A stretch of 64,000 nucleotides of DNA, taken from Mytilus edulis (Eukaryota). Made by a program: the position numbers. The stretch lies in the NCBI RefSeq assembly GCF_963676685.1, contig NC_092352.1, positions 62,000,001 through 62,064,000 of the forward strand, read 5' to 3'. Position 1 is the stretch's first letter; each line of letters opens with the position of its first letter. This document shows, piece by piece, positions 15,001 to 24,000 of this stretch.

Positions 15001-18000
15001 GGGTTGTAGTTTGTCTATTGAATCATTAACGTATATTCGATATCCATTTTATTCAAATTAAGAATAGAAATGCAGTTTAGTTTTAGATTTTTGAATTCAT
15101 TTCGTCATATCTTAATACGGTAATGATTAGCTGTAACTGTTGCAAATGTCAGTTTTCCAACCAAAAGTCGGTGGTTCTCTCAGGGCACTCTGGTTCCCTC
15201 AACCAATAAAAAGTTACCGCCACGAAATAGCACAATAGTGCAAATTGACGTTCAACACTTATCAATCAATCATCCATCCGGTTGCAAATGACGTTAAATT
15301 ACTATAAAAAATCTTTATTATTTAGTTTCCGTAATTTGGCTTAATTTTTCTTGTATATATTATAGAGTTGTTCCATATGCAATCATACCAAATCTTCTTA
15401 TTTTCATATTGACAATAGAAACAACTCAAACATTGAAATTGCAAAGCATTCTACTGATTTGTCATCTATTTTTGTGATATTTCTTTTTTGAATTCAAATC
15501 CTTAAAATATCTGAAATTTCAAAATATAAGTGTAATTGTCTAATCTGATTCTATACTTCCGGTTTCTTTCTGTTTACTTTCTTTCTATCTATAGATATAG
15601 CAAGATGTGGTATAAGTGCCAATGAGTCAACTCTCCATCCAAGTAACAATTTATAAAAGTAAACCATTATAGGTCCAGGTACGGCCTTCAACACGTAACA
15701 TAGGCTCACACCGAACAGCAAAGGGCCCCAAAAATTACTAGTGTAAAACCATTCAAACGGGAAAACCAACGGTCTTATCTATATAAAAACGAGAAACGAG
15801 AAACACTTAGGACAGGCGCAAACAATATGCCATACTACCGTATAGTTGGTACCGGCGTTTCACGTTTCCGCAATTTGGCACTACGTTTCTGCATATAAAT
15901 TCCTACGTTTCCGCATTTTTGTAGTACTCTTTTCCGCATTATTTTTACATTGATTTTGTTAAAGGTTATTTACGTTTCCGCATTTTTATTTTTAATGTAT
16001 GCCTATTCCGTTTGCCAGGTAAACTTGAGGCGTGTTCTTGTTCTTCGGTGGTGTTTGGTGTTTAGCACTACTTAAAACACTATTGGGTTATTCTGGTATT
16101 ATTATTCGTCTTGATATGTCGCTTATGCCTATTTTTCGTTTTTTATTGTAAATTGATTGATTGTTTGTTTGTTTGTTCCTATATTTTTTTACGCCCAATC
16201 ACAAATATTTCACGGGAGTTCAAATCAGTGTGAAGTGGATGTAAGCAATCTTTAGGCCTTCATCAATGACAAACCCGATACTGTAAAGTCGTATAGAAAG
16301 CCCCGACATTAAAACTGTGAAAAAATTCAAACTAAAAAACAAATTGTCAAATTATACATAACAAAACACTTTACAAAATATCAAATATGAGTAGAGACAT
16401 GAACCATCGACAACCACTGAACTACAGGATCATGACTTAGGACAGGAACAGTAAAGAATATGAAAGGCTAGGGTTGATATAAAAACAAAGATTTGGTATG
16501 ATGTCAATGAGACAACATTCCACAAGAGACTAAACCACACAGAAATTAACAGCTTTATATAATATACATGTCGAAGGAATCATGTTCATCATAATAAAAT
16601 ACAAATAAAAAAAAACACTTTGATAAAATAAAGTCTTATCTATCATTACCATTTTTTACAGGTGAAATACAGGTAAAAATGTGGAAAATATAATGTAGTA
16701 TTCATTTTTTGCGGAAAAGTAATGCACAAAAATGTGGGAAACGTAAAACTGGATTTTTGCTAAATTTGCGGAAAAGTAATGCACAAAAATGTGGAAACGT
16801 AAAAATGGATTTTTGCTAAATTTGCGGAAACGTCATACGCCCGTTCGCACAATATTCAGCTTGAATAAAGCACGATGCGTAAAACTCTTCATTCAGTTTT
16901 TTTTATAGAGTGATATTTTCATTCTGACAAATCATTTAAATTTAAAGATATCTTTCTTTCAAAATAAATTGCTAACATCTTTTATGTTTAAATTTGATGA
17001 TAACCTCTCAGCACTTTCTTTGTGTGTATCTTATTTTTATACACGCACTACAGCAAAATTAGAAATCAAAATTAAATCGCTTTCATTGTATGCGCACTAT
17101 CAATCGGAAGGAATGCATCTTCAATCTTACAGTTGGGTGCAGACCAAGCATTACATAAAGTAAACGCAAGTTAACGCCGCGTGCACATATTTCGTTAGTT
17201 AACTTCAAATCTCCCGTTTACTAGTAAACGCACGTTTACTATAATTACGTTAACGTGGTCGAAATGGAAATTTCTAATGTCTACCCTAGTAAACGGGCGT
17301 TTACTATGTGTCCGTTTAGTCAGTAGTAAACGGGCGTTTACTTCAGAATTCTTCAAATTTATTTTTACGTGCACTTAAAAGTAAACGGGCGTTTAGTACA
17401 GATTTTACAAGTGTATTTTTACGTGCACTTGAAAGTAAACGCACGTTTACTTTTCGCGTTAACTGATTGGGTAAATTTAGAAATAAACTTCAAGTTCATT
17501 TGCACATTTATTTTATAAAAGCGACCTTTAGTCTTTATATTTCACCTAGTATTTCACGTATATGTGTTTCAAACCAGAACAATTCAAAAACTCTTTTAAT
17601 TCGAAATATTAAATTACACAAAATCGCTTTCATAAAGTCCATTAACTTTACTGATTGGCAGATTTTCTATATTTTCCTTTCAAAAGTTACATGTGCAAAT
17701 ATCGATACGGAAAGAAAGGTTATCCGAGACATCGGGATAATATTTTTATATGATGGGATATAAACATCATGGTTTACGTTGTTTCTTTCCCCGTTTATAA
17801 TTGTCTCTTCGAATTCCTAACTATAACTCGGTGTATTTAATACATTAATTTTTAATCGAAATTCACCTTGTTTGCCTTGGATTAACATGATAAGATTCTG
17901 TTTTGACAAATGATAAAAAAAAAACGTAAATTGAACAGTATATTGAAAGGGATATCAATAAAGTGTAATATAAGTATGTTCATTTGTACCATCTCGTCAA

Positions 18001-21000: not shown

Positions 21001-24000
21001 TTTAAATAAAAAAAGGACATGCTGGCACTCTAAATTGATGCGAACAACATTTTTTAGTCATAATATTCAAATATTGCTACCTATTTTCTTATACAATCAA
21101 TCCTTACATGAAAATATAACTCATTTACTATGTGGCTATATAGATTTACATAATAAAATGCTTATATGGTCAGTTTTGGTCGTTGCGGACAAATAATTTT
21201 ATTATATGAGTCAGTCTGAGGTATGAAAACTACTGAATTTTGTTTACGATTCAATATTTTAAATAAAAAAAGGACATGCTGGCACTCTAAATTGATGCTA
21301 ACAAACTTTTTTAGTCATAATATTCAAATATTGCTACATATTTTCTTATTCAATCAATCCTTACATGAAAATATAACTAATTTACTATGCAGCTATATAG
21401 ATTTACATATTAAAATGCTTATATGTTCAGTTTTTGTTGTTGCGGACAAATTATTTTATTACATGAGTAAGTCTGAGGTATGAAAACTTCTGATTTTTTT
21501 TTACGATTCAATATTTTGAATAAAAAAGTACATGCTGGCAATCTAAATTGATGCGAACAAAATTTTTTAGTCATAATATTCAAATATTGCTACCTAATAA
21601 TAATTATATATTACGAGTTAGTCTGATGTATGAAAACTACTGAATTTTGTTTACTATTCAATATTTTAAATAAAAAGAGGTCATCGCCGTCAGGCTGGTA
21701 CAAAAATTGCTGTCAATTGCTTTATATAGTCAATTATGGCATAAAAATATAACTTAATTACTTCTATATAGAATAAGATAACTTGTTAAGAGGTAAATAT
21801 TGTCAGTTGTGGTGAATGATATCAAAAAGTTTTGTTTTACGAGTCAGTCTGTCTAAGATGAGAAAACTGTTTGATTTTGGTGAGGATTAAATTACATGTA
21901 TTTGAATAAACATACTTAAACTATTATTTGCGAAGAACAAGAAATTTACTATAATTATTGTTCAATTAAATACAAATGTGTGACATTTTTAAATAACTGT
22001 AATCGTCAATATGTCAAGCAGAAATGACCACTTGGTCAATTAATTTTGATGTTCCTTATCATTTCATATTTTAGGTCAGTGTATCCAAGTTACGATGACA
22101 ATCTGCGTTAACGGGCGTTTACTACAAACAGTAAACGCGCGTTTACTTATTACAAAAATAGAAGACGCGCCTTTTTCCACGTTAACGCGGAGGTAAACGG
22201 AAAAGTAAACGCCCGTTTACTCTTTACAAAATTAGAAGACTCGCCGTTTTTGCGTTAACGCGGAGGTAAACGCGAAAGTAAACGCCCGTTTACTTTTAAT
22301 GTCTACTGCAATTTCGGAGTTAACGCACAGTTAACGCGGCGTTTACATGAAGTGCACGCGAGTAAACGCCGCGTTAACTTTTTCGGCCCGTCTACACGTA
22401 ATGCTTGGTCTGCACCCAACTGTATCTCTCTATTATGCAATTTATTTACTGATTTAAAGAATTCTGTTATCTGTGAACTGCATGTACAGTATTGCAGACC
22501 TGTTTATAAGATCATCTATTATTTCTTTTATTTGCAAAGTTTCTATTTACGAACAATCTTAATGATACTTTGCAACATTATTCACACGTAACATGATCAA
22601 AGCAAACTTAAATATTTTCAATAGTTGAATTGAAGATGTACATTTGTAGATCATAGTGCCAATATAAACAGTATTATCAAAGTAACAAGAATCCAAACAA
22701 ACATCGGTAATTGATTCCACAGGAACATGATGAAAAACAGAATAAGGAAGATTTTAAGTTTTAAGTGTTTTAGATAACAAGGAAATTCAAATGATATCGG
22801 TGCACCTGGCCTTATTTTACTTCCTGCTGGGTTTCCCGCATTGTCATAAATACATGTAGTTAAAGCGATATTTGAAAGGAGACGCAACAACCAATATTTC
22901 TTAGAAAAATACAATGTATTGTATTGTGTGAAGGTTACGACAAACCAATTGCCCATTATTAATCCTCGTCAGATTAAATTTAACTCAAAATTGACGCTTT
23001 TAGAGTTGACATTGTTGTCAAATTGTAAACTTTGGTTTTTTTTTTCTTGTATTCTGTCTGCTCCGTTATATTTTTCCAAATACTTTGCCTGATGAACCTA
23101 TTTTCGCATGTTATTTTTATAGTTTGTGTTTTGCAAGACTGGCAAAGTTTTCTAATCGCCAACCTCAAATGCACCATTCATTCATGAGTTTGATTGATAA
23201 TTCCAAAGAGGAAAACATTCGATACATATTTAGGACGAGACAATGTCAAATTTCAAATTATTACAAAAGGTACATTCATGTAGGCTATGCAAGGCCTGCA
23301 TTATGTAAATTTGAACTGCAGCTGAAACATTTTGTTGTGTGGGAAAGGAACATTAAATTCCTCTTTGCAATAGGCCGAGTTCGGACTCTTAATAGAGTTG
23401 TTTAAAGGGTTCGTTAACGTGCAAGAAGAATTGCTTCCCCCCTAAACGAAATATCTGACTTGACGTCCCCGTTCCGACTGACCGTACATTGTACATAATG
23501 TGTTTTTATCAAAATTACATTTTTACTGTTGCTGTTACATTGTACAACTGATCATTAAGCAAGACATTGTAACAAAACTACATTGTATCTAGATATCTCA
23601 CAAAAATATTGGTTTATTTTATCCTAAATGAAACCCTGTCATACATAATTAATTTAATCTCCTTTTGAACATGTCAGTTTCCTGTCTGAGGTTATTGGCC
23701 GTTCTATGATAATTCGTCAATCTTTTGATCTTCCATTATAATCAATAATTACAAATGTATACAGTATTTAGGAAATTATTAAGTTTGAAGATCATTTACC
23801 GCAATATCCTGTACATCCTTTAATAGTGGATAACAAATTGAATTGATGAATGAATCTTCAAAGTATTTTTAAACAACCATATAGTTATAGAAGTATTTTC
23901 ATCGCAATTTCAATAGTTTAGTTGAAAAAATAAATCATTCAAAACTAAATACTGAATACTTTCTTATATATATGCAGGACATTTTCAGATAAACGATAGA

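What the first reader, a model, noticed from the sequence alone, without database searches (positions are those of the whole stretch)
17130..22422. A DNA transposon that carries an entire 257-bp satellite array as cargo
Seen: perfect 25-bp TIRs and TA duplication enclosing ~3.6 kb of homogeneous tandem repeat, with no transposase. Perfect TIRs suggest recent insertion. Known: bivalve satellites are often dispersed by Helentron-type elements. Inferred: here a cut-and-paste, TA-targeting element is the vehicle for satellite birth and spread, and may be an undescribed family.
Basis: partly seen in the sequence, partly recalled or inferred. Interest (0 to 1): 0.75.

Follow-up and report, generated by a model that had tools for sequence, protein, structure and literature searches.

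The report
Transposon carrying a 257-bp repeat array
A 5.3-kb jumping-gene shell with no gene of its own encloses about fifteen tandem copies of a 257-base repeat, a tidy example of a known way in which repeated DNA can be moved around a genome.

Summary
A perfect 25-bp inverted repeat sits at 17130-17154 and 22398-22422, with TA on each outer side. It encloses a 257-bp tandem array (18022-21596, 13.9 copies, 94% matches). No reading frame wholly inside exceeds 98 aa, and none has a credible Pfam match.

I add three things:
- Both ~330-bp subterminal arms are packed with GTWAACG half-sites: 35 in 664 bp, against 11 in the other 63.3 kb.
- The array ends on the right in two decayed monomers (88% and 68% identity to the consensus), and it contains a duplicated dimer. 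It therefore grew in place.
- Frames translated from the monomer match four unnamed public proteins. One matches a specific monomer junction at 95%.

The best reading is a non-autonomous, TA-targeting TIR transposon, probably Tc1/mariner-like, with an internal satellite-like array.

The "vehicle for satellite spread" claim is untested. Only one copy is visible, and no eukaryotic genome or repeat library could be searched.

The idea is not new. A Tc1/mariner MITE with an internal satellite (miDNA4, Xenopus) is described in reviews I read, and oyster satellitomes list satellites similar to non-Helitron DNA transposons.

Verdict: a new member of a known kind, of modest interest.

The parts
17128..17129 (.). 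TA, left copy of the putative target-site duplication
   Evidence: TA directly outside the left TIR.
17130..17154 (+). Left terminal inverted repeat, 25 bp, begins CAGT
   Evidence: exact match, 0 of 100 shuffles match., I3.
17155..17470 (.). Left subterminal arm with 15 GTWAACG half-sites, including 4 palindromes GTAAACGNNCGTTTAC. Putative transposase-binding array (inferred).
   Evidence: CpG observed/expected is 1.97 over 17130-17470.
17325..17451 (+). 54-bp subrepeat, 2.3 copies, inside the left arm; each copy carries the palindrome
   Evidence: 84% matches.
17471..17996 (.). Left internal unique segment: AT-rich, non-coding, unrelated to the monomer
   Evidence: best local match to the monomer is 17 columns; no Pfam family.
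18022..21596 (+). Core tandem array, 257-bp monomer, 13.9 copies (m1-m14, the last cut at consensus position 242)
19561..20585 (+). Duplicated dimer inside the array. m7/m9 are 97% identical and m8/m10 95%, against 92% for m7/m8 and m9/m10.
   Evidence: identity matrix.
21600..21732 (+). Decayed partial monomer (model positions 95-219); 88% identity to the consensus over 86 columns
   Evidence: nhmmer E 7.6e-19..
21740..21892 (+). Strongly decayed monomer relic (positions 9-157), 68% identity
   Evidence: nhmmer E 3.7e-09..
21893..22099 (.). Right internal unique segment
   Evidence: no monomer similarity beyond 10 nt.
22100..22397 (.). Right subterminal arm with 20 GTWAACG half-sites, including 3 palindromes
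   Evidence: CpG observed/expected is 2.19 over 22100-22422.
22125..22298 (+). 74-bp subrepeat, 2.4 copies, inside the right arm
   Evidence: 86% matches.
22398..22422 (-). Right terminal inverted repeat, 25 bp, perfect complement of the left one
22423..22424 (.). TA, right copy of the putative target-site duplication

Best explanation
Window 17130-22422 is one 5293-bp non-autonomous class II (TIR) transposon inserted at a TA. It most likely belongs to the Tc1/mariner/pogo group.

**Proposed mechanism (inferred)**
- A transposase encoded elsewhere recognises the 25-bp termini and the many GTWAACG sites in the two ~330-bp arms.
- It cuts the whole unit out and pastes it at another TA.

**The array**
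- The interior holds a 257-bp tandem array that is part of the element's own internal sequence.
- The array grew there by unequal exchange or replication slippage. The evidence is the decayed monomers at the right edge and a duplicated dimer in the core.
- Any transposition would therefore move a ready-made kb-scale array.

**Shown versus inferred**
- Shown: the termini, the TA, the arms, the array, the absence of coding capacity, and tandem monomers on other public contigs.
- Inferred: the superfamily, mobilisation in trans, and that other copies of the family carry the array.
For: - Perfect 25-bp TIRs plus TA on both sides. This is the longest perfect inverted repeat in the window, against 14-18 nt in 30 simulations.
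- TA duplication and ends reading TA|CAGT fit Tc1/pogo-type ends. That consensus is recalled, not tested.
- Arms: 35 GTWAACG half-sites in 664 bp against 11 in the other 63,336 bp. All 7 palindromes GTAAACGNNCGTTTAC in the window lie in the arms. 22 of 25 GTAAACG/CGTTTAC words lie in the element.
- CpG observed/expected is about 2 in the arms, against 0.68 in the array and 0.90 window-wide, so the sites are little decayed.
- No coding capacity.
- The monomer is confined to the element within the window. All 14 array hits and the 2 relics lie inside; the 3 nhmmer hits outside the element have E 2.9-7.3.
- Identity falls from 90-99% in the core to 88% and then 68% at the right edge. The pairs m7/m9 and m8/m10 mark a duplicated dimer.
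- The translated monomer frame finds 4 unnamed public proteins at 74-96% identity on contigs of 553-779 bp.
- P0003 (117 aa, longer than one monomer) matches the m7/m8 junction at 94.9%, against 80.3% for the next best place. Tandem copies with the same variant order therefore exist elsewhere.
Against: - Only one copy of the termini and arms is visible, and there is no empty site in the window. Mobility and family status are unproven.
- Searches with arm-derived frames found no other copy. One search gave none. One search gave 3 weak hits whose best stretches lie mostly in the flank part of the query. This is weak evidence, because such short frames are rarely predicted as proteins.
- Many subterminal sites per end are not typical of Tc1/mariner elements, which by recall have one or two binding sites per end. 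A 2-bp duplication seen at one copy cannot fix the superfamily.
- Beyond the first ~55 nt the two arms match only at motif level, not colinearly.
- P0003 could come from the same locus in another individual or assembly rather than from a transposed copy.
- At 5.3 kb the element is far above MITE size.
Confidence: 0.6

Rival explanations
1. The transposon is real, but it arrived with only one or two monomer-like units. Nearly the whole array arose afterwards at this locus by local duplication. On this reading the element seeded a repeat and did not carry an array, and other family copies hold few or no monomers.
For: - Decayed monomers at the right edge and a homogenised core.
- A duplicated dimer, m7-m8 to m9-m10.
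- Near-identical distant pairs such as m3/m11 at 99% show recent in-place duplication.
- The miDNA4 model in review PMC12628747 (passages) describes single monomers and arrays of variable copy number within one MITE family.
Against: - Core monomers differ by 1-10% pairwise, so the array is not a very recent burst.
- The arms keep their CpG-rich sites.
- P0003 reproduces the specific m7/m8 junction on another contig. If that contig is a paralogue, the variant order predates this insertion.
Confidence: 0.3
2. Nested or composite origin. A short TIR element was interrupted by a separate event that brought in the array, either insertion of a repeat-bearing Helentron-type element or recombination with a satellite locus. 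On this reading the array is not native to the element.
For: - About 530 bp (left) and 200 bp (right) of unrelated unique sequence separate the array from the arms.
- A HINE-like element lies 5.6 kb downstream in the same window (28022-28398), so such elements are present in this genome.
Against: - No microsatellite lies next to the array. By PMC7492417 (passages) HINEs carry one in the left flank.
- The interior has no similarity to the HINE-like element or to anything else in the window (all hits E>=0.047).
- Only two TIR copies exist, so the structure is not two elements flanking an array.
- I did not look for a subTIR or a 3' palindrome next to the array, so that part of the HINE test remains open.
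Confidence: 0.08
3. The ends belong to a superfamily other than Tc1/mariner. Candidates are another group with a 2-bp duplication, or a foldback-like element whose arms are built of subrepeats.
For: - Dense subterminal repeats, 35 half-sites, with 54-bp and 74-bp subrepeats in the arms. These recall hAT, CACTA, P or foldback-type ends more than Tc1/mariner ends (recalled knowledge).
Against: - 3-bp and 8-bp duplications do not fit the flanks.
- The arms are not long colinear inverted repeats.
- TA plus CAGT ends are the classic Tc1/pogo signature (recalled).
Confidence: 0.3

Closest known systems
miDNA4 of Xenopus tropicalis, a Tc1/mariner MITE with an internal satellite. Scalvenzi and Pollet 2014, known to me only through passages of reviews PMC12628747 and PMC9659126; the primary paper is not held.
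   Same: A non-autonomous element described as Tc1/mariner, with a satellite-like repeat inside the inverted-repeat shell. The copy number of the monomer can grow within the element, and the element is proposed as a route to satellite DNA.
   Different: The host is different, and sequence relatedness could not be tested. Here the element is 5.3 kb with ~15 monomers of 257 bp and arms dense in palindromic sites. Variable copy number among family members is not shown here.
Helentron-type non-autonomous elements of bivalves: pearl, DTC84 and Cg_HINE. PMC7492417 and PMC3879986, passages only.
   Same: Non-coding shells that enclose short satellite-like arrays and disperse them. One such element probably lies in this window at 28022-28398.
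   Different: By those passages HINEs have subterminal 11-12-bp inverted repeats and a microsatellite next to the array. PMC7492417 finds no TSD and a preference for TT; PMC3879986 describes AA as a putative TSD. Here there are terminal 25-bp TIRs, a TA duplication and no microsatellite.
Tetris foldback transposon of Drosophila virilis, and Xmix/Xstir of Xenopus. PMC4079207 from a search listing and abstract only; table of PMC9659126.
   Same: Class II non-autonomous elements whose repeats are linked to satellite arrays.
   Different: In those cases the satellite derives from the TIR or from the MITE itself. Here the monomer is unrelated to the arms.
Oyster satellites similar to non-Helitron DNA transposons, for example CgiSat32 listed as DNA/Mariner. 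Table of PMC8268682 and Table 2 of PMC11136912.
   Same: A documented link in bivalves between tandem repeats and TIR-type DNA transposons.
   Different: Those are Repbase similarities of monomers. The passages I read do not describe an intact TIR element with TSD enclosing an array. I did not open the supplements of these papers; they may hold such cases.

Membership tests
Tc1/mariner/pogo superfamily (non-autonomous member) | TA target-site duplication | tested here: met
   TA on both sides. One copy only. TA is common in this 32% GC sequence, so the support is moderate.
Tc1/mariner/pogo superfamily (non-autonomous member) | Terminal inverted repeats | tested here: met
   25/25 perfect; 0 of 100 shuffles match. 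Simulated maxima are 14-18 nt. That CAGT ends are typical of Tc1/pogo is recalled.
Tc1/mariner/pogo superfamily (non-autonomous member) | An autonomous partner with matching ends that encodes a DDE/D transposase of this superfamily | not testable with these tools
   There is no second copy of the ends in the window. None of the 62 ORFs of 75 aa or more in the window has a Pfam family. No eukaryotic genome collection was available.
MITE (miniature inverted-repeat element) | Small size, usually up to about 600 bp (PMC3879986 introduction), and high copy number | tested here: not met
   The element is 5293 bp. Copy number is unknown. Without the 3.9-kb repeat region it would still be about 1.4 kb.
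Tandem-repeat-containing TIR elements (miDNA4-like) | Satellite-like monomers inside the TIR shell | tested here: met
Tandem-repeat-containing TIR elements (miDNA4-like) | Family members with variable monomer number | not testable with these tools
   Only one copy is visible. Four public proteins show tandem monomers elsewhere, but their contigs could not be read.
Helentron/HINE (pearl, DTC84, Cg_HINE) | No TSD or AA/TT site; subterminal 11-12-bp inverted repeats; microsatellite next to the array | tested here: not met
   The inverted repeats are terminal and 25 bp long, with TA. Tandem Repeats Finder reports no microsatellite between the arms and the array. Features are taken from PMC7492417. 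The 3' palindrome was not examined.
Foldback elements | Long inverted arms that pair along their length | tested here: not met
   The left arm and the reverse complement of the right arm align colinearly only over the first 53-57 nt. The rest matches at motif level.
Retrozyme-type tandem repeats with hammerhead ribozymes | Hammerhead ribozyme motif in each monomer | tested here: not met
   No Rfam family at gathering score in the window. With permissive filters there were two chance-level matches, both in the right arm (E 0.49 and 0.75). The monomer fold has z = -0.35.
Classical satellite DNA | Long arrays at many or heterochromatic loci | not testable with these tools
   The array here is 3.6 kb and euchromatin-like in context. 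Genome-wide abundance is unknown.

The most novel reading that the evidence does not exclude
This is a copy of a still mobile, TA-targeting TIR family with unusual many-site palindromic arms. The family moves kilobase-scale 257-bp arrays by cut and paste. It would then be a second route for seeding and spreading satellite DNA in this (probably bivalve) genome, independent of Helentrons, with the order of monomer variants preserved between copies.
Probability: 0.25. Interest if true: 0.55.

Novelty: new member of a known kind. Interest (0 to 1): 0.3.

Why it matters
If the family is multi-copy and carries the array, it would show that repeat dispersal in this genome is not tied to rolling-circle Helentrons. 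Ordinary cut-and-paste elements could also plant ready-made arrays at new sites. The decayed edges and the duplicated dimer give a readable record of how an array grows inside a transposon. The dense GTWAACG arms would be a convenient handle for finding the transposase. As it stands, this is one well-preserved example of a relationship already described in frogs, flies and, at the level of similarity, oysters.

Tried and rejected
**Searches for other copies**
- Exact scans of genome contigs (bacterial and archaeal genomes only), using a 22-nt piece of the TIR and a 27-nt conserved piece of the monomer, gave 0 matches each. This says nothing about the host genome. I ran them only in case host DNA contaminated some record.
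- Arm-derived frames as protein queries gave nothing useful. The left arm gave no candidate. The right arm plus flank gave 3 weak hits, with 2 to 12 matched stretches in proteins of 570-1089 aa and best stretches mostly in the flank half. I set them aside as composition-driven.
The contigs behind these proteins remain unread.
- The element's arms and flanks were searched against the rest of the window. No second copy and no empty site were found.

**Literature**
- A search for the first 13 nt of the TIR as text found 0 papers.
- Kourtidis et al. 2006 is not held. Searches for its satellite names or sizes gave nothing usable.
- The Limnoperna satellitome paper has no 257 or 258 in its main text, and its only matches to "256" are page numbers in the reference list.

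**Alternatives rejected**
- hAT (8-bp) and PIF (3-bp) duplications do not fit the flanks.
- Retrozyme, foldback and two-elements-flanking-an-array readings are rejected in the membership rows.
- The other two long arrays in the window (25618-25911 and 44236-45295) are not enclosed by TIRs.
- ORF 6872-7258 found no longer homologue.
- One search was an aborted script.
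Full report
**1. The observation**

- The 25-mer CAGTTGGGTGCAGACCAAGCATTAC lies at 17130-17154 on the plus strand and at 22398-22422 on the minus strand. These are its only two matches in the window at up to 3 mismatches, and none of 100 dinucleotide-preserving shuffles gave a match.
- With the TA on each outer side, the repeat finder reports a 27-nt, 100% complementary pair (I3).
- This is the longest perfect inverted repeat within 8 kb in all 64 kb. In 30 first-order Markov simulations the longest was 14-18 nt.
- Duplications of 3 or 8 bp do not fit the flanks.
- Tandem Repeats Finder gives an array at 18022-21596: period 257, 13.9 copies, 94% matches, no indels.
- No stop-to-stop frame wholly inside the element exceeds 98 aa.
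- None of the 62 ORFs of 75 aa or more in the window has a Pfam family at E<=0.01.
- Twenty short ORFs of the arms and unique segments gave 3 matches at E 0.044-0.17, all far below the curated cut-offs.

**2. The arms**

Each end continues into about 330 bp that is crowded with the half-site GTWAACG.
- There are 35 half-sites in 664 bp of arms, against 11 in the remaining 63,336 bp.
- 22 of the 25 GTAAACG/CGTTTAC words in the window lie in the element.
- All 7 palindromes GTAAACGNNCGTTTAC in the window lie in the arms, 4 on the left and 3 on the right.
- The arms carry their own subrepeats: 54 bp x 2.3 on the left and 74 bp x 2.4 on the right.
- The left arm and the reverse complement of the right arm align colinearly only over the first 53-57 nt. 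Beyond that they share motifs, not order.
- CpG observed/expected is 1.97 and 2.19 in the arms, against 0.68 in the array and 0.90 in the window. The CpG-bearing sites have therefore not decayed.

I read these sites as an array of transposase-binding sites. That is an inference.

**3. The array**

- The 13 full monomers are 90-99% identical to one another and 1.5-5.8% from their consensus. 199 of 259 columns are invariant.
- m7/m9 (97%) and m8/m10 (95%) are closer than the neighbours m7/m8 and m9/m10 (92%). This indicates duplication of a dimer. Distant pairs such as m3/m11 reach 99%.
- A profile of the monomers finds two further pieces to the right of the array. One is at 21600-21732 (E 7.6e-19; 88% identity to the consensus over 86 columns). 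The other is at 21740-21892 (E 3.7e-09; 68% identity).
- At the left edge similarity starts near 18005.
- The repeat region is thus about 3.9 kb with decayed edges and a homogenised core, the pattern expected of an array that grew and turned over in place.
- The unique segments (17471-17996 and 21893-22099) are unrelated to the monomer.
- The monomer has no special fold (z = -0.35) and no Rfam family. A ribozyme-bearing retrozyme is therefore excluded.

**4. Other copies**

Inside the window there are none.
- The monomer occurs only inside the element; the 3 nhmmer hits outside it have E 2.9-7.3.
- The arms have no second copy.
- The flanks have no paralogous empty site. The left flank does share 73-82% similarity with 55846-56128 and 13373-13455.

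Outside the window, the only usable route was the protein collections.
- A 77-aa frame of the monomer finds four unnamed proteins, P0001-P0004, at 74-96% identity. Their contigs are 553-779 bp and their source is 'ena'.
- P0003 is 117 aa, longer than one monomer. It matches 19628-19978, the m7/m8 junction, at 94.9%, against 80.3% for the next best place.
- Tandem monomers with this particular variant junction therefore exist in other public data.
- Frames from the arms found nothing informative.
- Two scans of prokaryotic genomes were empty, as expected.

**5. What it is**

The best reading is a non-autonomous TIR transposon inserted at TA, with an internal satellite-like array.
- The TA duplication and the ends reading TA|CAGT point to Tc1/mariner/pogo. 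The consensus of those ends is recalled, not tested.
- The many subterminal sites are unusual for that superfamily, so I hold the assignment at roughly 0.6.
- The element is not a Helentron/HINE. By the passages of PMC7492417, HINEs have subterminal 11-12-bp inverted repeats, a microsatellite beside the array, no TSD and a preference for TT.
- It is not a foldback element.
- At 5.3 kb it is not a MITE in the size sense.

**6. How it works (inferred)**

- A transposase supplied in trans binds the ends and arms, excises the 5.3-kb unit and reinserts it at TA.
- The array changes length by unequal exchange or slippage inside the element.
- Each new insertion would plant an array that could expand further or outlive its shell.
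- The main rival is that most of the expansion happened after insertion at this locus. The present data cannot separate the two.

**7. Age**

- Perfect TIRs alone say little. The two ends are not copied from each other at insertion, and at about 3% decay 50 nt would stay unchanged roughly one time in five (my arithmetic, using the divergences).
- The intact TA pair, the seven perfect palindromes and the high CpG of the arms are compatible with a fairly young copy, but they do not prove it.

**8. Comparison with what is known**

- Review passages describe miDNA4, a Tc1/mariner MITE of Xenopus tropicalis. It holds a satellite as a single monomer or as arrays of variable copy number, and it is proposed as a route to satellite DNA (PMC12628747; PMC9659126). 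The primary paper is not held.
- The table in the same review lists further class II cases, including Tetris, Xmix/Xstir, SGM and a Stowaway MITE in rye.
- In bivalves the well-described carriers are Helentron-type elements (PMC7492417 and PMC3879986, passages).
- Oyster satellitome tables already list satellites similar to other DNA transposons, including DNA/Mariner (PMC8268682; PMC11136912 Table 2).
- I did not open the supplements of these papers. They may hold intact TIR-enclosed arrays.
- The concept is therefore known. This element may be a new family, but that could not be checked.

**9. Host**

The host was not determined.
- A HINE-like unit lies at 28022-28398: 169 bp x 2, followed by a (CGAACGGA)n stretch that reads GTCC-type on the other strand. 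It resembles the layout described for bivalve and insect HINEs.
- From memory only: Kourtidis et al. 2006 reported Mytilus galloprovincialis satellites of 169, 260 and 70 bp, and this window holds repeats of 169, 257 and 73 bp. The paper is not held, so this is an untested lead. If it is right, the 257-bp repeat itself has been known since 2006.

**10. Verdict**

The structure is right, but carriage and spread are unproven, and the idea is not new.
- I rate it a new member of a known kind, with interest 0.3.

Noticed in passing
window 28022-28398: A 169-bp repeat (2.0 copies, 91%) is followed directly by a (CGAACGGA)n / (CGAACGGACGAA)n microsatellite. On the minus strand the order is microsatellite then repeats, as described for Helentron-type HINE/pearl elements.
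   Followed up: partly
window 44236-45295: A long minisatellite, 25 bp x 43 copies with a 73-bp higher-order period x 13.3. It is strongly T-skewed. One strand is open for 152 aa of low-complexity K/T/S/G-rich sequence. No flanking TIRs were found.
   Followed up: partly
window 25618-25911: A 22-bp tandem repeat, 13.4 copies at 88%, not enclosed by inverted repeats.
   Followed up: partly
window 45588-46480 and 42939-43119: Two other inverted-repeat structures. One has 75-nt arms, 88% complementary, 743 nt apart. The other is a hairpin-like pair of 65-nt arms, 86% complementary, 51 nt apart. Both are possibly MITE-like or foldback elements.
   Followed up: no
window 16130-17129 (left flank of the element): The left flank shares 73-82% similarity with 55846-56128 and 13373-13455, and it holds a 56-bp repeat x 2.2 at 16708-16830. 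The element may therefore sit in or next to another dispersed repeat.
   Followed up: no
window 6872-7261 and 8312-8644: Two of the longest open frames in the window (129 and 110 aa) look protein-like to the eye, but they have no Pfam family. The first found no longer homologue.
   Followed up: partly
window 18022, 28022 and 44313: The three repeat periods in the window (257, 169 and 73 bp) are close to the monomer sizes I recall for the Mytilus galloprovincialis satellites Mg2, Mg1 and Mg3 (260, 169 and 70 bp). This is recall only; the paper is not held.
   Followed up: partly
window 62060-62098: A perfect (CGTCCGT)5.6 microsatellite, of the GTCC type found in HINE left flanks. No adjacent tandem repeat was reported.
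   Followed up: no
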